Counted from the stretch's first letter, positions 7,776 through 24,713 are shown. The stretch: 64,000 bases of DNA from an uncultured Clostridia bacterium (GCA_934149075.1 CAKPDR010000009.1:1565-65564); one strand, 5' to 3'. A program made the numbers and translations. The notes: a model not told the origin generated them from the letters alone.

Positions 7776-8052
7776 AATGTTACCAGTAGGGACACCCATA
7801 AGTGGTCAAAATCTTTACCAATGGGGACACCCATAAGTGGTCAAAATCTTTACCAGTAGGGACACTCATTAATGGTAAAAGTTTATTATTTAATAATGTT
7901 TAAATAATAAATAATGAATATTAATATTAAATACTCTAACTTTTATTATACCTTTTACCATTAATGAGTGTCCCTACTGGTAAAGATTTTGACCACTTAT
8001 GGGTGTCCCTACTGGTAAAGATTTTAACCACTTATGGGTGTCCCTACTGGTA
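7776..8052. repeat. REP-like palindromic repeat array: three ~35-bp units, a ~65-bp AT-rich centre, then three units in inverted orientation
   Basis: Unit is TACCAGTAGGGACACCCATAAGTGGTCAAAATCTT and variants; the whole array is a large inverted repeat between the fruA 3' end and the ptsH promoter. Confidence 0.75.
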
Positions 8053-8060
8053 ACTCCAGA

Positions 8061-12795: not shown

Positions 12796-12870
12796 TGGTT
12801 GGGCTGGCTAGATTCGAACTAGCGCATGCCAGAGTCAAAGTCTGGTGCCTTACCGCTTGGCTACAGCCCA
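12796..12870 (-). tRNA. tRNA-Gln (anticodon UUG), CCA encoded
   Basis: Cloverleaf UGGGCUGUAGCCAAGCGGUAAGGCACCAGACUUUGACUCUGG...GUUCGAAUC..CAGCCCA-A-CCA. Confidence 0.9.
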
Positions 12871-12885
12871 ATATATAATATTTTA

Positions 12886-12963
12886 TGGGGTGGAAGATGG
12901 GACTCGAACCCACGGTCTCCAGTGCCACAAACTGGCGCGTTAACCAACTACGCTACATCCACC
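12886..12963 (-). tRNA. tRNA-His (anticodon GUG) with the extra G-1:C73 pair, CCA encoded
   Basis: G-GUGGAUGUAGC..anticodon stem CCAGU/ACUGG, loop UUGUGGC; T-arm GUGGGUUCGAGUCCCAU; ..CUUCCAC-C-CCA. Confidence 0.9.
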
Positions 12964-12995: not shown

Positions 12996-13024
12996 ATTTT
13001 AATATGATTTTTCATATTTGTCAA
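12996..13024 (-). promoter_or_regulatory. Sigma-A-type promoter for the tRNA-His/tRNA-Gln operon
   Basis: Reverse strand reads TTGACA, then a 17-nt spacer, then TAAAAT, about 25 nt upstream of the tRNA-His 5' end. Confidence 0.5.
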
Positions 13025-13080
13025 GTTTTTTTCAATAATTTCTTAAAGTTTTGTTGCAGTTTAGTTACAATTCGCACTCC

Positions 13081-13442
13081 TTAAAAATATTATATATGTT
13101 GGGAACCTTCCTAGGTGATTATATATATTTGAGATTTTGTCCTGTTCATTACGTTCAAAAAGAAAATCTACCATAAAAAACTGAGCCTCTCTCACTCAGG
13201 TATAAAATGCATATATATATATGAGTTTAAACTTTTCGAATGTGATTGGAGCAATATTAGAATTTCTTATGTTGCGTATTGAGCCAAGAAAATGTTTCAA
13301 ATCATATACATATATGCATTTTTCCGTGAGCATTCCTCATTTTTTTATTTTAAATTTTCTATTTTTCACTCCAATCAAACGGACAAAATCTCAAATATAT
13401 ATAATCACCTAGGAAGGTTCCCAACATATATAATATTTTTAA
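13081..13442. mobile_element. MITE-like 362-bp element bounded by perfect 62-bp terminal inverted repeats
   Basis: 13081-13142 is the exact reverse complement of 13381-13442; the 238-bp core has internal hairpins (CTGAGC..CACTCAGG) and no convincing ORF. Confidence 0.5.
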
Positions 13443-13527
13443 TGGCTGTGAATCGTAACTCTGTTTAATATTTTTACCAATTTCACAAAAAATAATACCT
13501 ATAAGACTAGGTACTATTTTTTGTATT

Positions 13528-14517
13528 TTATTCTTCTCCTCTACCTTCTGGTAAAGCATCTGGCAATTCAATTCTAATTCTAATCTTGCAAACATAAGAT
13601 ATAGCTCTTCCCAATTTACTATTTTTAATTCTTTGCCATAAAGATGGTTTTTTCTCAAATGTGACAGAATTTTGATATTCTTGTATCTCTTGTTCTTCAA
13701 CAGCCATTTCGTCAACTTCATCTTCATTTTCTTCCTCAAATGAAAGAACTTGAGAAATTGTTTTTTCAGGAACAACTTCTTCTTTTGCAACTTTTACCTT
13801 TTCTGTCTTTTTAGTTGCTTTTGCTTTGTTTACTTCTTTTACTTCTTCTATTTCTTGAACTTCTTCTACATTTTCCTCAATTATTGCATCTGCAGGTTTT
13901 GGAATTCCCTTTAAAGCTTCTGCAACCTCAATTCCTATATAGCTTAAAGCTTTTGATCTATCTTCTGTTCTTTCTAAATCTATTTCTATATGTAAATTTG
14001 TTTCTAAATTATTTACTCTTGCATTTAACAATTTTAAAGCATCTTGATAATTTTGACTTTTTCTGCTTCTATCTTTCCCGACCAATGTAAGTGTATCAAT
14101 TACATCCTCTGAAAAGTCTCCTTCTGCTTCTTTAACCTTATCTTTCCATCCCGTTTCTCTTGACTCAACAACACCAATCAGTTCTGTCAATTTACCTGCT
14201 AATGCTATATTTTCTTCTCTTTGTCTAATTAGTTCCTCAACTTTTTTAGTATTTTCTTCAAATTGTATAGTTGCATATTCAACCAAACCATATGCTGCCT
14301 TATATACACTTACTGGGAAATTCTTTTTCTTAGGATATTCTATTAAATAAGCTTTTATAGATTCAATCAAATCCTTGAAATATGTGTCGTCTTCTAATTG
14401 AACTATTTGCTTTTTGCTTTTCGGATTTATCATTTTTTGTACTTTATCTATATTTGATAGTATTTTTTCTTCTGTGATAACCATTCTCACATTTACTATG
14501 CCTGATCTTCTAGACAT
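13528..14517 (-). CDS. Hypothetical protein with an acidic/lysine-rich coiled-coil C-terminal half
   Basis: 329 aa, AAGGAGGA RBS 8 nt upstream; no confident family assignment. Confidence 0.5.
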   Translation of the reverse strand: MSRRSGIVNVRMVITEEKILSNIDKVQKMINPKSKKQIVQLEDDTYFKDLIESIKAYLIEYPKKKNFPVSVYKAAYGLVEYATIQFEENTKKVEELIRQREENIALAGKLTELIGVVESRETGWKDKVKEAEGDFSEDVIDTLTLVGKDRSRKSQNYQDALKLLNARVNNLETNLHIEIDLERTEDRSKALSYIGIEVAEALKGIPKPADAIIEENVEEVQEIEEVKEVNKAKATKKTEKVKVAKEEVVPEKTISQVLSFEEENEDEVDEMAVEEQEIQEYQNSVTFEKKPSLWQRIKNSKLGRAISYVCKIRIRIELPDALPEGRGEE

Positions 14518-17311: not shown

Positions 17312-17407
17312 ATTTGGTTGTTGACAATTCTCAATTTACATTTATTTGCAATTTTTATCATTTTTTATGTAACTCATTTTTATAATGTATTGTAAAAAAT
17401 AAGAATG

Positions 17408-17517
17408 TAATATATTATTTTAAAGTTTAACAAGGTGTTTTAAATTTGTTTCAAACAAATTTAAAATAGCAAGACGTCCGCAGTTAAACGATAAAATAAT
17501 ATATTACATTCTTATTA
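17408..17517. repeat. Perfect 25-bp inverted repeat (AATAAGAATGTAATATATTATTTTA) with a 60-bp spacer that holds a second perfect 11-bp palindrome
   Basis: Nested hairpin structure; a T-run follows on the minus strand, so it is a possible oversized terminator for the gene at 17560-17862. Confidence 0.4.
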
Positions 17518-17875: not shown

Positions 17876-18013
17876 TTACCAGTAGGGACACTCATTTCTG
17901 GTAATTTTTTTTACCAATAGGGACACCCTTTATATAATTTCATTAATTTTTTTCGCATAAGAGTGTCCCCTGTGGTAACTTTTTTTACCATTAATGGGTG
18001 TCCCCAATGGTAA
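17876..18013. repeat. Four units of the REP-like palindromic repeat in inverted pairs
   Basis: TTACCAGTAGGGACACTCAT..., ..TACCAATAGGGACACCC.., ..GAGTGTCCCCTGTGGTAA.., ..GGGTGTCCCCAATGGTAAA; lies between the polC stop and the DUF1294 gene start. Confidence 0.7.
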
Positions 18014-18014
18014 A

Positions 18015-21000
18015 TTATCCAAACAAACTCAATTGATTACTTTGACTCATTCCTTCCAAGCAACCGAATTGACGTAATAATTCTGTTACAGAATCACCTA
18101 TTTTTGCACGTATTTTCATATCATCAATTGACATGAATTTTTCTTCTTCTCTTGCTCTCATTATGCTTTCAGCCGCAACTGAACCTAATCCAGCTATACT
18201 ATTTAAAGGAGGACGAATACTATCTCCTTCTACTAAAAATTTTGTTGCATGTGACTTATATAAATCTATTGGTAAAAATCTAAATCCTCTTTCATACATT
18301 TCTAATACTATTTCCAAGTCATCATACATATCTTTGTCTTTTGGTGTTGCTGCATTTCCCATCATATCTATTTCTTTCATTTTATTTTTTACTTTTTCTT
18401 TTCCATTTATCATTGCTTCCGCGTCAAACGCTTTTGCTCTAATTGAATAATATGCTGCATAATATGCAAGTGGAATATGTACTTTGAACCATGCTATTCT
18501 GAAAGCATTTGTCACATATGCTGCTGCATGGGCCTTTGGAAACATGTATTTAATTTTTTCACATGATTTTACATACCAATCAGGTACTCCATGTTCTTCC
18601 ATTAATGGTATATATTCGTCTTTCCATTTTGGTTCTTTACCTTTTGCTACTTTTCCTTTACGTACCGCTTCCATTATTTTAAATGCTTTGTCTGGTGGTA
18701 ATCCTTTTTGCATTAGATATACCATTATATCGTCACGACAACATATTGCTTCTTTTAATGTTACTATTCCTTGTTCTATTAATGTTTGGGCATTTCCTAA
18801 CCATACATCTGTACCATGTGATAATCCTGATAAACGTATTAGTTCATCAAATGTGGTTGGATGTGTGTCCATAAGCATCCCTCTTGCAAATTTTGTTCCA
18901 TATTCAGGTATTCCAAATGTTCCAACTTCTGAATGTATTTGTTCTGGTGTTACTCCTAGGGCTGTTGTTGAATTGAATATTGACATTGTTTCTTTGTCGT
19001 CTAACGGAATTGCTGTTGGTGCTACTCCTGTTATGTCTTGTAACATACGAATTACTGTCGGATCGTCGTGTCCCAGTATGTCTAATTTTAGTAAGTTTCC
19101 GTCTATTGAGTGATAATCAAAGTGTGTTGTTATTATGTCTGAGTTTGGATCATCAGCGGGATGTTGTACTGGTGTAAATTCATATATTTCTCTTCCTTTT
19201 GGTACTACAATTATTCCGCCTGGATGTTGTCCTGTTGTTCTTTTTATTCCAGTACATCCTGCTGAAAGCCTTGTTATTTCTGCTTTATTTACTGGTATAT
19301 TTCTTTCTTCGTAATATTTTTTAACATAACCAAATGCTGTTTTATCTGCAACTGTACCTACTGTTCCTGCTTTAAATGTTGTTCCTTTTCCAAAGATTAC
19401 TTCTGTATATTTATGTGCTTTTGCTTGATATTCTCCTGAGAAGTTTAAGTCTATATCTGGTTCTTTATCTCCATTAAATCCCAAGAATGTTTCAAATGGT
19501 ATGTCCATTCCATCTTTTGCTAATTTTGCACCACATTTGGGGCAGTCTTTATCTGGTAAGTCAAATCCATTTCCTACTCCATAATCTTCAAATTCTGAAT
19601 ATTTGCATTTTGGACATCTATAATGTGGCTTTAATGAGTTTACTTCTGTTATACCTGTCATATATGCTACAAGTGACGAACCTACTGACCCTCTTGATCC
19701 TACTATATATCCATCTTCATTTGATTTCCATACTAATTTTTGTGCTATTATATACATTACTGAATATCCATTACTTATTATTGAATTTAACTCTTTGTCA
19801 AGTCTTGCTTGTACTATTTCTGGCAATGGATCTCCATATAATTCATGTGCCTTGTTATAAGCTATGTTTTTTATATCTTCTTCACATCCTGGTATATGTG
19901 GTGGACATTTTTCAGGTGATATTGGATCTATTCTATCACACATATCTGATATTTTATTTGTGTTTGTTACAACTACTTCATATGCTTTTTCTTCTCCTAA
20001 ATAGCTAAACTCTTGTAACATTTCTTCTGTTGTTCTTAAATATAATGGTGCTTGATTATCTGCATCTTTATATCCTTGACCTGCTTCTAATATACGTCTG
20101 TATATTTCATCTTGTGGATCCATAAAATGGACATCACATGTTGCTACAACTAGTTTGTTTAGTTTTTCTCCTAATTCTACTATTTTACGATTTATGTCTT
20201 TTAAATATTCTCTATCTGGTACTTTTCCATCTCTTACTAAAAAATCATTGTTTCCTATTGGTTGAATTTCTAGATAATCATAATCTCTTGCTATATTTTC
20301 TATTTCTTCATCTGATTTTCCAAGTTCTATTGCTTGATATAATTCTCCCGCCTCACATGCACTTCCTAATATTAAACCTTCTGAATATTTTTTGTATATA
20401 CTTTTTAATATACGTGGTTTTTTATAAAAATAATGTAAATGTGAAAGAGATACTAATTTATATAAATTTCTTAGTCCAATATAATTTTTTGCTAATATTA
20501 TTGCATGATATGTATTTAATTTTTTGTATTCTTCTTTCTTAGCATTTTCATCTCTTCCTATGGTGTCTATTTCTTCAACCTTTGTAACTCCTCTATCTTT
20601 TAATTTTTGTATCATTACATTAAATACTTTAACTGTTGTATCTACATCATCTAATGCTCTATGTGCTACTTCTACTACTATTCCTAATTCATCTGCAATT
20701 TTACCAAGTTTGTATTTTTTCATATTTGGAAATATATCCTTTGCAAGTGTTAATGTGTCTATTACTGTATAATCAAATTCATATCCTAATGCTTTTGCGT
20801 TTTGCTTTAAAAATCCAACATCAAATTTTGCATTATGTGCAACAATTATTGAATCTCCTAAAAATTCTAGTATTTTGGGAAATACTTTATCAATTGTTTC
20901 TGCATCTTTTACCATTTCATCTGTTATGTTTGTAACATCTACAACTCTTTGTGGAATTGGTTTCTCTGGATTTACAAAACAACTAAATTCATCTATTACC

Positions 21001-23023: not shown

Positions 23024-23668
23024 ATGGCAAGAATAAGTAAAAAAGAAAAAGAAGCCGAAAAAATTGAAAAAGAAGAAAATGTAGAAAATTTAGAAAATCT
23101 TGAAGTTACTACAAATACTTCAAAAACAAAAAATATGGAAGATTTAAAAAATATTTTAGCAGAATTAAAAACTGTATTATCAAATCTAGACGTAAACATT
23201 TCTCAATTAGACTCATCAATTTCATCAAATAAAGAAATAGTAGATGATAAAAAAAATGATGAAATTACAGATAGTAATACACTTTTAATTTCTGAAACAC
23301 AAAGTAAAGTTGTATTACCTTATAAAATAGAAAATGTAAAAAAAATCTTAAATGAAAATTCTAAATATGAAACACTTCAAGATGTCATTAATGTAGAATA
23401 TACATTACCTATTACAAAATACAAGAACTCATCAAAATCACGATTTAAAGAAGCTTACAGTTTAATGCGTAAAAAAGAAAAAGCTTCTGTATTTGATAGC
23501 TTAAGTGTAGCTACAGAAATGACATTTAACAATTCTCTTAATCCTGCAGTCATAACTGCTTGCGAAAATTTAGATCAACTTGATGTATATGTTGATTGTT
23601 TATCTTCTAATAAACTTGACAAATTTAATTATTTTAAGGTAAAATATGAAGCTTTACCAAAAAAATAA
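23024..23668 (+). CDS. Hypothetical protein (214 aa, Lys/Glu/Asn-rich)
   Basis: AAAGGAGGAA RBS; followed by a bidirectional terminator hairpin (AGAAAAAACTAT..ATAGTTTTTTCT). Confidence 0.5.
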   Translation: MARISKKEKEAEKIEKEENVENLENLEVTTNTSKTKNMEDLKNILAELKTVLSNLDVNISQLDSSISSNKEIVDDKKNDEITDSNTLLISETQSKVVLPYKIENVKKILNENSKYETLQDVINVEYTLPITKYKNSSKSRFKEAYSLMRKKEKASVFDSLSVATEMTFNNSLNPAVITACENLDQLDVYVDCLSSNKLDKFNYFKVKYEALPKK

Positions 23669-23705
23669 GAAAAAACTATTTATATAGTTTTTTCTTATTT
23701 TTTGT

Positions 23706-24713
23706 TTAATTTTCATTATTTAAAGCTTTTTCAATTAATTTATCTAATAGCTCTGAATATGTAATTCCAATTGCTTCTAACAATTTTGGATACATACTTA
23801 TTTTGGTAAAACCCGGCATTGTATTTATTTCATTTATATATATTTTGTTTGTTTCTTTTTCTATAAAGAAATCTACTCTTGCCAAGCCTTTTCCATCAAT
23901 TGCTTTAAATGCTTTTACTGCAAGTTTCTTAATTTCTTCCATTTTGCTTTCTTCAATTTCTGCTGGAATAATAGTTTTTGACTCTTGAATATTATATTTT
24001 GCATCAAAACTATAAAATTCCTCTGCTGATATTATTTCTCCTACTGTTGATGCAATAATGTCTTTGTCTTCTAAAACAGCACATTCTATCTCTCTAGCAT
24101 CTATCCCCTGTTCTACTAAAATTTTATTATCATATTTTCCCGCATGTTCTATTGCCATTTTTAATTCACTATTATTGGTAGCTTTTTTTACTCCAATTGA
24201 AGATCCTGAATTAGATGGTTTTACAAACATTGGAAACTTTATTTTATCAGTTATTTTTTCTATTTTAAATTCTTCTTCTTCAAATTTTTCATCTATAATT
24301 GCATATCCATCCTTATTTTTCTTTATATATATATACGGTGCTTGGTCGATTCTAGCTTTTTCGAAAATAACTTTTGTATACACTTTATCCATCCCTATAC
24401 TTGAAGCCAAGACTCCACTTCCTACATATGGAATTTTTAACATTTCAAACATTCCTTGTATTGTGCCATCTTCTCCTCCTAATCCATGCAATACTGGAAA
24501 TAGAACATCTAAATCTTTTAAAGTCCATACTAAATTATATATCTCTTCCCTTTCACCACTACCTTTTTCAAAATATTTTCCATATTCATTTATATAAATC
24601 TCATGTATTTCATATTTTTCTTTATCTAAGTTTTCTATTATAGATTTTGCTGACATTACTGAAATATCATGTTCTGTTGATATTCCTCCATAAATAATAC
24701 CTAATTTTATCAT
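23706..24713 (-). CDS. ddl: D-alanine--D-alanine ligase; start at the ATG after GGAGGG (the ORF-track TTG start is rejected)
   Basis: MIKLGIIYGGISTEHDISVMSAKSI.., ATP-grasp motifs, C-terminal EINTMPGFT. Confidence 0.92.
   Translation of the reverse strand: MIKLGIIYGGISTEHDISVMSAKSIIENLDKEKYEIHEIYINEYGKYFEKGSGEREEIYNLVWTLKDLDVLFPVLHGLGGEDGTIQGMFEMLKIPYVGSGVLASSIGMDKVYTKVIFEKARIDQAPYIYIKKNKDGYAIIDEKFEEEEFKIEKITDKIKFPMFVKPSNSGSSIGVKKATNNSELKMAIEHAGKYDNKILVEQGIDAREIECAVLEDKDIIASTVGEIISAEEFYSFDAKYNIQESKTIIPAEIEESKMEEIKKLAVKAFKAIDGKGLARVDFFIEKETNKIYINEINTMPGFTKISMYPKLLEAIGITYSELLDKLIEKALNNEN

What the first reader, a model, noticed from the sequence alone, without database searches (positions are those of the whole stretch)
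13064..13442. 362-bp element with perfect 62-bp terminal inverted repeats next to the tRNA operon (MITE-like)
13081-13142 (TTAAAAATATTATATATGTTGGGAACCTTCCTAGGTGATTATATATATTTGAGATTTTGTCC) is the exact reverse complement of 13381-13442, enclosing 238 bp that has its own hairpin (CTGAGCCTCTCTCACTCAGG) and no credible ORF. A perfect 62-bp inverted repeat implies either a recent transposition or hairpin-forming selection. The 37 nt spanning its left edge (GTTACAATTCGCACTCCTTAAAAATATTATATATGTT) recur inside a hairpin in the ldh 3' UTR at 35743-35779. That suggests a family of related sequences or a preferred insertion context. The site is next to tRNA genes, a classic mobile-DNA target.
Basis: seen in the sequence. 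Interest (0 to 1): 0.55.

Follow-up and report, generated by a model that had tools for sequence, protein, structure and literature searches.

The report
Decaying foldback MITE beside tRNA promoter
The perfect 62-bp inverted repeat is real and belongs to a 396-bp non-coding mobile element (a new MITE family of uncultured gut Clostridia) that inserted upstream of a tRNA promoter with an 8-bp target duplication; it is an ordinary kind of thing with a few odd details.

Summary
The 62-bp perfect inverted repeat exists. The element is larger than reported: 13064-13459 (396 bp, GTTAC...GTAAC), a near-complete palindrome with about 80-nt arms, flanked by 8-bp direct repeats (GCAGTTTA/TCTGTTTA).

It belongs to a dispersed family. 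I found at least 2 more copies in the same species' metagenome and 4 in a sister MAG. Their flanking 8-mers match 35/48 (P<1e-6). Three sister lineages have an empty site with one 8-mer (ATTGTTTA), so the window carries exactly element + 8 bp.

The insertion is old, not recent. It is fixed in the species as three length variants (461/396/93 bp). The window copy has lost a 65-nt apical hairpin.

The "37-nt recurrence" at 35743 (35/37 identical) is a 49-bp remnant of another copy. That copy is full-length (466 bp) at the orthologous ldh site in the sister MAG.

There is no ORF, Rfam family, phage, plasmid or viral match, and no partner transposase was found.

Oddities: the interior is better conserved than the arm ends. 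Arm variants are private to a copy but shared by both of its arms. A distant Clostridia MAG has the same core with unrelated arms.

Verdict: a new member of a known kind (MITE/foldback); modest interest.

The parts
13056..13063 (.). Left copy of the 8-bp target-site duplication (GCAGTTTA)
   Evidence: The empty site in sister lineage L052-L054 has a single ATTGTTTA between the same anchors, AAAGTTTTGTT and ATATTTTT. Coordinates.
13064..13459 (+). The element proper: 396 bp, GTTAC...GTAAC, non-coding. It is a 65-nt apex-deletion derivative of the 461-bp family form.
   Evidence: Boundaries come from alignment to copies L015, L018, L038/37 and L039/40 and from the empty site.
13064..13142 (+). 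Left arm (about 79 nt). Conserved boxes: GTTACAATTC, TTAAAAATATTATATATGTT, CCTAGGTGATTATATATATTTGAGATTxTGTCC. Variable patches lie at arm positions 11-17 and 38-47. The perfect 62-mer is 13081-13142.
13143..13380 (+). Conserved core, 94-98% identical between copies. It shows about 68% BLAST identity over about 300 nt to the cores of the distant L017 elements.
13181..13199 (-). Left-block hairpin CTGAG-N9-CTCAG. On the minus strand a T-run follows it, so it looks like a terminator.
   Evidence: The block is conserved in L017.
13204..13322 (.). Inner AT-rich inverted repeat (33-nt arms, 88% complementary) around the truncated centre. The deletion junction of the apical hairpin lies within GAATTTCTTA|TGTTGCG at about 13269/13270.
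13326..13340 (+). Right-block hairpin GTGAG-CATTC-CTCAT, followed by T7 on the plus strand.
   Evidence: Read from the sequence. The block TTTTTCCGTGArCATyCCTCA is conserved in L017.
13381..13459 (+). Right arm. The perfect 62-mer is 13381-13442. The outer 17 nt differ from the left arm at 5 positions (6, 11, 14, 15, 17).
   Evidence: the mismatch count was made by hand on the two sequences printed.
13460..13467 (.). Right copy of the 8-bp target-site duplication (TCTGTTTA)
35743..35791 (.). 49-bp remnant of a second family copy just past the ldh stop codon. It keeps both termini (GTTACAATTCACA...TGAATTGTAAC) and is flanked by CATTTTAG / CATTTTTG.
   Evidence: The sister MAG locus L018 carries a 466-bp copy at the same position, with flanks 94% identical. 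Gene spacing at this site is identical in 10 of 10 strains; their sequences there were not inspected.
12996..13024 (-). Context: promoter-like site for tRNA-His/tRNA-Gln (TTGACA-17-TAAAAT, 11/12 match). The element lies 39 nt upstream of the -35.
   Evidence: This promoter region is present unchanged at the empty sites.
13485..13524 (-). Context: terminator-like hairpin of the upstream 329-aa gene. The element sits between this hairpin and the tRNA promoter.
   Evidence: I5. It is present at the empty sites too.

Best explanation
The feature is a non-autonomous DNA transposon: a MITE of the 'foldback' type, in which nearly the whole element is one long imperfect palindrome.

An ancestor of this species acquired a copy of about 461 bp, 39 nt upstream of the -35 of the tRNA-His/Gln promoter. 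The insertion duplicated 8 bp of target, which points to a staggered cut by a DDE-type transposase supplied in trans. That step is inferred; the enzyme was not found.

The copy has since been immobile at this locus and is decaying. Slippage across the palindrome removed the 65-nt apical hairpin to give the 396-bp form in the window. In other strains slippage removed about 370 bp to give a 93-bp stump. The hairpin at 35743-35791 is the same kind of stump from a second insertion.

The perfect 62-bp arms are not a sign of youth. They most likely reflect copying of one arm from the other, either by intramolecular template switching (quasipalindrome correction) or by gene conversion. This would explain why each copy has private variants present in both of its arms. 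That step is also inferred.

I found no evidence for a host function. The element lies in the neutral gap between a terminator and a promoter.
For: Family: 4 copies in MAG CAKPLT01 and at least 2 further copies in metagenome QWCV01, which also holds the window's own locus. All share termini, arms and core.

TSD: flanking 8-mers match 6/8, 8/8, 7/8, 7/8, 5/8 and 2/8, a total of 35/48. In 10^6 simulations from AT-rich background, P < 1e-6.

Empty sites: L052-54, L055-57 and L058-61 lack the element. L052 aligns base for base with the window flanks and holds one 8-mer where the window has 8 + 396 + 8. The L025 copy upstream of mraZ is likewise absent in a lineage with 95% identical MraZ.

Decay series at one locus, in strains with an identical neighbouring protein: 461/462, 396 and 93/91 bp, with deletion ends in short direct repeats. 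Elsewhere there is a 172-bp form (L025) and a 49-bp form (window 35743-35791).

Non-coding and not a described RNA.

Orientation relative to neighbouring genes is mixed: 3 forward and 2 reverse, by reading.

Both strands fold equally well.

Concerted arms: the private variants ATGGATG (L038/37), GGGGGAGTCTT (L018) and GATTGTG (L015) each occur in both arms.
Against: No autonomous partner with matching ends was found. There is no second GTTACAATTC-type terminus pair around an ORF in the window or in the fetched copy-bearing loci that I scanned. There were no plasmid or phage matches and no viral-contig matches.

The conservation pattern is the reverse of a textbook MITE. The interior is 94-98% identical between copies, while the outer 50 nt are only 81-91%.

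The distant L017 relatives keep the core but have unrelated arms. It is therefore not obvious what a transposase would recognise.

One copy (L039/40) has no TSD, and one (L038/37) is marginal at 5/8.

The template-switch explanation for the perfect arms rests on known bacterial mutational mechanisms. No test was done here.
Confidence: 0.8

Rival explanations
1. The element is a mobile or duplicated gene for a structured non-coding RNA: a rod-like RNA of about 300-460 nt with a conserved core and a capped apical hairpin. It spreads as DNA but is kept because the RNA does something.
For: The core is better conserved than the arms. It is recognisable at about 68% identity in a distant Clostridia MAG whose arms are unrelated. 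Of 172 predicted pairs, 30 keep pairing through changes on both sides. The apex reads TTCAC-GAGA-GTGGA, a GNRA-type loop. It has a T.G wobble that is kept with a compensatory change in L013 (TTCGC..GCGGA) and in L077 (TTCAAG..CTTGGA). Hairpin-plus-T-run motifs occur near both ends of the core (right-hand one read from the sequence).
Against: No Rfam family matches, even for the long forms. Both strands fold equally well and G-U counts show no strand bias. No conserved promoter was found. Orientation relative to neighbouring genes is mixed. The window species tolerates loss of the apex and of nearly the whole element at this locus. Paired changes in a palindrome are also produced by arm-to-arm copying, so they do not prove an RNA.
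Confidence: 0.1
2. Only the conserved core is mobile, and it inserts into pre-existing host palindromes. On this view the long arms are target DNA rather than part of the element.
For: The two L017 copies have 98% identical 324-nt cores, each bounded by its own short inverted repeat (TAAATCAAC/GTTGATTTA), and completely unrelated arms.
Against: For the family in the window, the empty sites lack the arms as well as the core. The arms are homologous between copies at unrelated loci. The L017 pattern is equally explained by gene conversion between two neighbours 2.4 kb apart.
Confidence: 0.04
3. The palindrome is a local regulatory structure: an operator, insulator, or bidirectional terminator that serves the tRNA promoter and the upstream gene.
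For: It lies between a terminator and a strong promoter-like site. The L025 copy lies 38 nt upstream of the -35 of an mraZ promoter with a similar upstream region. Related elements lie upstream of rpsB promoters.
Against: Sister lineages run the same promoter without it. Strains of the same species keep only a 93-bp stump. Other copies lie after stop codons or next to terminators, at sites with no promoter similarity.
Confidence: 0.04

Closest known systems
Prokaryotic MITEs such as Correia/NEMIS (Neisseria), ERIC/IRU (enterobacteria) and RUP (Streptococcus pneumoniae). Properties recalled from my own knowledge; only the generic definition of TIRs was read in the review PMC10969869.
   Same: Small, non-coding and intergenic, with terminal inverted repeats, a target-site duplication, multiple dispersed copies, whole-length hairpin potential, presence/absence between close relatives, and internal-deletion variants.
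   Different: Those families are 100-160 bp, have TA or other short duplications, and have TIRs as their best-conserved part. This family is 460-500 bp when intact, has about 80-nt arms and an 8-bp duplication, is low in copy number (a handful found per genome), and has arms that vary more than the interior.
Foldback (FB) transposons of eukaryotes (from my own knowledge)
   Same: Almost the whole element is a pair of long inverted arms around a short centre. Size is highly heterogeneous because of internal deletions.
   Different: FB arms are built of tandem subrepeats, and the elements are eukaryotic with their own associated proteins. No homology is implied. A second repeat in this window, at 7779-8054, does have tandem-subrepeat arms.
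IS families that make 8-bp duplications and could supply the transposase: the clostridial 'long' IS6/IS26-like clades VII/VIII (8-bp TSD listed in PMC6807381), and ISL3, IS256, IS66/ISBst12 (from my own knowledge)
   Same: The 8-bp target duplication, and occurrence in Clostridia for the IS6-like clades.
   Different: The termini do not match the consensus I could check: IS6/IS26 is GGTTCTGTTGCAAA (PMC6807381), against GTTACAATTCACA here. The TIR sequences of the clostridial clades are given only in a figure I could not read. No such IS was found next to any copy.
Quasipalindrome-templated mutation by intramolecular template switching in bacteria (from my own knowledge of the E. coli literature)
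   Same: It would turn an imperfect inverted repeat into a perfect one and copy a new variant from one arm to the other. That is the pattern seen in the arms.
   Different: It is a mutational process, not a family of elements. Its action here is inferred from the pattern only.
REP/BIME palindromes mobilised by RAYT transposases; IS200/IS605-derived palindromic elements
   Same: Intergenic palindromic repeats of bacteria.
   Different: Those are 20-40 nt units with a GTAG or CGTC head (PMC3733652 abstract) and leave no target duplication. IS200/IS605 types insert next to a fixed tetranucleotide. Here there is an 8-bp duplication, and the empty site holds no TTAC.

Membership tests
MITE (non-autonomous DNA transposon) | Small and without coding capacity | tested here: met
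   The element is 396 bp here and 461-503 bp when intact. Its only ORFs are mirror-image ones of 41-63 aa, and the central insert of the longer copies breaks them.
MITE (non-autonomous DNA transposon) | Terminal inverted repeats | tested here: met
   Arms of about 80 nt ending GTTAC/GTAAC, of which 62 nt are perfect here.
MITE (non-autonomous DNA transposon) | Target-site duplication of fixed length | tested here: met
   8 bp. Matches total 35/48 over six copies, P < 1e-6. The empty site holds a single 8-mer.
MITE (non-autonomous DNA transposon) | Several dispersed copies in one genome | tested here: met
   MAG CAKPLT01 has 4 copies on 3 contigs. Metagenome QWCV01 has the window locus plus 2 more copies. 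The window also holds a remnant at 35743.
MITE (non-autonomous DNA transposon) | Presence/absence at orthologous sites | tested here: met
   Locus A is empty in three sister lineages. The mraZ site is empty in L090-95.
MITE (non-autonomous DNA transposon) | A cognate autonomous IS with matching ends | tested here: inconclusive
   None was found in the window or in the fetched copy-bearing loci scanned for the terminus, in plasmids or phages or in viral contigs.
Described RNA families (Rfam 15) | Match to a covariance model at or near its gathering score | tested here: not met
   Only tRNAs passed. Everything else was far below threshold, including for the long forms in L047, L015 and L017.
REP/BIME (RAYT-mobilised) | 20-40 nt unit with a GTAG/CGTC head and no target duplication | tested here: not met
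   The unit is 400-500 bp, its head is GTTAC, and an 8-bp duplication is present.
IS200/IS605-derived palindromic elements | Insertion 3' of a fixed tetranucleotide without duplication | tested here: not met
   The empty site ...GTTATTGTTTAATATT... holds no TTAC, and the filled site has 8 extra bases.
tRNA-targeted integrative element | Integrase-mediated insertion into a tRNA gene end with an att repeat | tested here: not met
   The insertion lies upstream of the tRNA promoter. The four MAG loci with other copies hold no tRNA. No integrase is present in the element.
Integron attC site | R''/R' core sites (RYYYAAC...GTTRRRY) within a cassette array next to intI | tested here: not met
   The termini read GTTACAA...TTGTAAC, which is the wrong order and does not fit the consensus. 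The copies are solitary and lie between housekeeping genes. The consensus is from my own knowledge.

The most novel reading that the evidence does not exclude
These may be members of an undescribed class of 'core-conserved, arm-variable' rod-shaped elements in small-genome gut Clostridia. On this reading, what selection keeps is a core of about 300 nt (two asymmetric blocks plus a capped apical hairpin), together with the mere existence of a long stem of any sequence. That would point either to a mobile structured RNA gene or to a transposition machinery that recognises hairpin or cruciform shape and internal sites rather than terminal sequence. Insertion would show a preference for a spot about 38-39 nt upstream of the -35 of strong promoters.
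Probability: 0.12. Interest if true: 0.65.

Novelty: new member of a known kind. Interest (0 to 1): 0.3.

Why it matters
As a MITE it mainly matters for annotation. It explains a 396-bp 'orphan' palindrome, a hairpin after ldh, and probably several contig breaks in metagenome assemblies of this common human-gut lineage; contigs end inside the element.

It also provides a clean natural series of palindrome decay at one locus (461 to 396 to 93 bp). It is a clear case in which perfect inverted repeats do not mean a recent insertion.

If the minority reading were right, with the core functional and the arms free to vary, it would define a new kind of mobile structured element in uncultured Clostridia.

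Tried and rejected
(1) An exact 20-mer scan of 185,579 species-representative genomes gave 34 hits, of which 30 were chance hits in unrelated taxa. One of the chance hits, L017, happened to lie 300 nt from a distant relative of the element.

(2) blastn of the element against plasmid and phage collections found nothing.

(3) Three viral-contig scans with conserved core or apex patterns found nothing. I therefore have no evidence for a phage link.

(4) Rfam at a permissive E-value, on the window form and on the long forms, gave only sub-threshold microRNA-like noise, as expected for any long AT-rich hairpin.

(5) A profile HMM of the core, run over the window and 71 fetched loci (about 0.5 Mb), found no further diverged copies.

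(6) A search for a parent IS using termini like GTTACAATTCACA at up to 2 mismatches found no inverted pair around an ORF.

(7) Small peptide idea: a 17-aa ORF (MSLNFSNVIGAILEFLK) in the long form has no ribosome-binding site, so I dropped it.

(8) Inward promoter idea: TTGGGA-17-TATATA in each arm. The -35-like hexamer varies between copies and the scan tool did not flag it, so I did not pursue it.

(9) IS608-like TTAC targeting was rejected by the empty site.

(10) Literature searches for a described equivalent returned only general MITE and IS papers.

(11) Sampling rpsB-tsf loci of other relatives for more family members found one more related palindrome (L077), and none in the six P0168 loci (L078-L083) by a long-inverted-repeat screen.

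Full report
OBSERVATION. The window has 28% G+C. Positions 13081-13142 are the exact reverse complement of 13381-13442. The repeat is part of something larger. The arms extend, with mismatches, to 13063-13166 / 13357-13460 (104 nt, 86% complementary). The whole of 13063-13460 aligns to its own reverse complement at 77%. A second inverted repeat is nested inside (13204-13236 / 13290-13322). The claimed 37-nt recurrence at 35743-35779 is 35/37 identical, not exact. The same sequence is present in independent assemblies, so it is not an artefact. As a single strand the element folds into one long rod (DNA -104 kcal/mol, z = -18; RNA -178 kcal/mol, z = -19.5).

SETTING. tRNA-His and tRNA-Gln are on the minus strand at 12796-12962. 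Their promoter-like site (TTGACA-17-TAAAAT, 11/12) is at 13024-12996. The upstream 329-aa gene (13528-14517, minus strand; no precomputed Pfam domain) ends in a hairpin at 13485-13524. The palindrome fills the gap between that terminator and the tRNA promoter.

A FAMILY EXISTS. A scan of one genome per species for the 20-mer TTAAAAATATTATATATGTT gave 34 hits. Thirty were chance hits in unrelated taxa. Four were in one MAG, CAKPLT01 (an uncultured Clostridia bacterium from Hadza gut samples), and all four are relatives of the element:
- L015, 480 bp.
- L018, 466 bp.
- L013, cut off by the end of the fetched locus.
- L025, a 172-bp internal-deletion form.

A metagenome scan for an arm 21-mer found only contigs of one assembly, QWCV01. 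These are the window's own locus (99-100% identical) plus two further copies, L038+L037 and L039+L040.

All copies begin GTTAC (or ATTAC) and end GTAAC. They share the arms and a highly similar interior. The intact form is 461-480 bp. It carries a central hairpin (AAATAAATTTATGG ... TTCAC-GAGA-GTGGA ... CCATAAATTTATTT) that the window copy lacks.

IT INSERTED WITH AN 8-BP DUPLICATION. The eight bases on either side of GTTAC...GTAAC are as follows:
- Window: GCAGTTTA / TCTGTTTA.
- L015: TTTTATTT / TTTTATTT.
- L018: CCAAAATG / CTAAAATG.
- L025: TATTTTGC / TATTTTAC.
- L038/37: ATTTTATT / CATTTATA.
- L039/40: TATAATTA / ACAAAACC.

That is 35 matches out of 48. Against AT-rich background pairs taken 400 nt apart, no simulation out of 10^6 reached this total.

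I retrieved the orthologous locus from relatives through homologues of the 329-aa protein. Three sister lineages lack the element. L052-54 reads ...AAAGTTTTGTT-ATTGTTTA-ATATTTTTTCC... The window reads ...AAAGTTTTGTT-GCAGTTTA-[396 bp]-TCTGTTTA-ATATTTTTACC.... The window therefore has exactly the element plus 8 extra bases. The arms are absent from the empty site, so they travel with the element. The copy upstream of mraZ (L025) is likewise absent in a lineage whose MraZ is 95% identical, although that alignment is less clean on one side.

IT IS OLD AND DECAYING. Ten loci (L041-L050) were fetched from strains that encode an identical 329-aa protein. The nine that cover the site all carry the element at this locus, in three sizes:
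- 461/462 bp in L047 and L049.
- 396 bp in the window, L042 and L046.
- 93/91 bp in L041, L043, L044, L045 and L048.

The 396-bp form differs from the long form by loss of 65 nt between GAATTTCTTA and GAAATTCTTA, which removes exactly the apical hairpin. The 93-bp form is a deletion between ATATAT runs. No strain has an empty site.

The two TSD copies differ from each other at 2 of 8 positions, and from the sister-lineage 8-mer at 3 and 2 positions. The outermost 17 nt of the two arms differ at 5 positions, while the next 62 nt differ at none. A uniform mutation process would not give that contrast, so the perfect stretch is not evidence of a recent insertion.

SITE B. At 35743-35791, immediately after the stop codon of ldh (35801-36757, minus strand), lies GTTACAATTCACACCCCTTAAAAATATTATATATGTTCTGAATTGTAAC, flanked by CATTTTAG / CATTTTTG. 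The sister MAG has a 466-bp copy at this exact position with the same flanking 8-mers (L018), and its flanks are 94% identical to the window. The window sequence is therefore a 49-bp stump that kept both termini. Gene spacing at this site is identical in all ten strains retrieved, which suggests the stump is fixed; I did not inspect those sequences.

WHAT IT IS NOT. Rfam gave only tRNAs above threshold, for the window form and for the long forms. The ORFs are short mirror images, and the central insert of the long forms interrupts them. There are no matches in plasmid, phage or viral-contig collections. The four MAG loci with other copies hold no tRNA. No integrase or transposase lies in or beside the element.

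ODD FEATURES. (1) Between copies the interior is 94-98% identical, but the outer 50 nt of each arm are only 81-91% identical. Within the arms, three boxes are constant (GTTACAATTC; TTAAAAATATTATATATGTT; CCTAGGTGATTATATATATTTGAGATT) and two patches vary.

(2) The variable patches and some point variants are private to a copy yet present in both of its arms. Examples are ATGGATG in L038/37, whose 80-nt arms are perfect; GGGGGAGTCTT in L018; and GATTGTG in L015.

(3) One of the chance hits, L017 (a rabbit-gut Clostridia MAG), carries two elements flanking rpsB-tsf. Their 324-nt cores are 98% identical to each other. BLAST aligns them at about 67-68% over about 300 nt to the core of this family, and they share the blocks TGTTCATTACxTTCAAAAAGAAAwTCTA, TGAGCCxCTxTCACTCAGG and TTTTTCCGTGArCATyCCTCA. 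Their 52-72-nt arms, however, are unrelated to this family and to each other, while remaining self-complementary.

(4) L077 has a 190-nt palindrome upstream of its rpsB promoter that shares only the apex module ATGGAAAGxGTTCA...GGAAGGGxGCCAT.

(5) A consensus fold over six sequences has 172 pairs, 30 of which keep pairing through changes on both sides. Both strands fold equally well, and G-U counts show no strand bias.

(6) The window copy and the L025 copy lie 39 and 38 nt upstream of the -35 of promoters with similar upstream regions (tRNA-His and mraZ respectively). With n = 2 this is only a lead.

MECHANISM. Shown here: a dispersed family, an 8-bp duplication, empty sites, and in-place deletion variants.

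Inferred: mobilisation in trans by a DDE-type transposase that makes 8-bp staggered cuts. Families with that duplication length include the clostridial IS6-like clades listed with 8-bp TSDs in PMC6807381, and, from my own knowledge, ISL3, IS256 and IS66/ISBst12. The IS6/IS26 consensus end GGTTCTGTTGCAAA (PMC6807381) does not match GTTACAATTCACA. No partner was found.

Also inferred: the arms are kept complementary by copying one arm from the other, either by template switching in quasipalindromes (a known bacterial mutational route) or by gene conversion. The better-conserved interior may reflect gene conversion between copies, which would spare the edges, or functional constraint on internal sites.

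The main rival is that the core is a functional RNA. It is supported by core conservation, paired changes, and the GNRA-capped apex with a conserved wobble. It is weakened by the lack of strand asymmetry, the lack of a conserved promoter, the mixed orientation, and the fact that strains tolerate loss of most of the element.

COMPARISON AND VERDICT. The element meets every testable defining feature of a MITE except the identified partner IS. It fails the tests for REP/BIME, IS200/IS605-type palindromic elements, attC sites, tRNA-targeted islands and all Rfam families. It resembles Correia/ERIC/RUP elements in kind but differs from them in size, arm length, duplication length and conservation pattern. 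In shape it resembles eukaryotic foldback elements.

I rate it a new member of a known kind, of modest interest (0.3). There is a minority possibility (about 0.12) that the core-conserved, arm-variable architecture marks something less conventional.

LIMITS. Each large DNA collection could be scanned only once. Copy numbers are therefore lower bounds, based on exact 20- or 21-mers. The host's whole genome was never searched for a transposase. No expression data were available.

Noticed in passing
window 7779-8054 (also L040 3793-4004; partial units at window 17876-18018 and 474-526): A second foldback-like repeat. Three tandem 35-bp units (GTTACCAGTAGGGACACCCATAAGTGGTCAAAATCT) sit on each side of a 70-nt AT-rich centre, in inverted orientation, giving 103-nt arms that are 97% complementary. 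A version with 2+2 units lies at another locus of the same metagenome. It also starts GTTAC and ends GTAAC, but I saw no clear 8-bp duplication.
   Followed up: partly
L017 3956-4423 and 6403-6832: Two palindromic elements flank rpsB-tsf in a rabbit-gut Clostridia MAG. Their 324-nt cores are 98% identical to each other, and BLAST aligns them at about 67-68% over about 300 nt to the window family's core, but their arms are completely unrelated. Contigs from other samples of that species end inside these elements.
   Followed up: partly
L077 1735-1921: A 190-nt palindrome upstream of an rpsB promoter. It shares only the apical module ATGGAAAGxGTTCA...GGAAGGGxGCCAT and part of the central stem with the window family.
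   Followed up: no
L059-L061 versus L058, between tRNA-Gln and the next gene: A different 101-bp insertion (AATTCGGTCTCAATACAGAG...GTAGTATCCG) is present in some strains of a sister species and absent in another. ATTTTTAT occurs on both sides of it, so it is probably another small mobile element with a 7-8-bp duplication.
   Followed up: no
L045 5539-8804: One strain of the window's species carries a tyrosine integrase (PF00589), a DUF3644 protein and an HTH/peptidase S24 repressor-like gene directly after tRNA-His/tRNA-Gln, in place of the usual neighbours. This looks like an integrated island or prophage at the tRNA.
   Followed up: no
window 17398-17516 and 23640-23722: Two further intergenic palindromes (129 and 84 nt self-complementary). 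The first varies in length between strains (L041 1002-1120 versus L042 1036-1120).
   Followed up: no
window 13015-13063 versus L025 2369-2417: The DNA just outside the element on the promoter side is similar at the two loci: TTTAAGAAAwTTAyTrAAAAAmACTTGmCAAA, followed by the -35. The element ends lie 39 and 38 nt from the -35. This may be a target preference or simply a shared promoter architecture.
   Followed up: partly
L002, L014, L026, L027, L032 (Methanosarcina and relatives): The AT-rich 20-mer used for the genome scan also hit five methanogen loci. They share about 60 further bases (..TAGTATAAATTGCGTTCTCATCT..AAGACCACATAGCAAAG). This is an unrelated conserved archaeal repeat or RNA.
   Followed up: no
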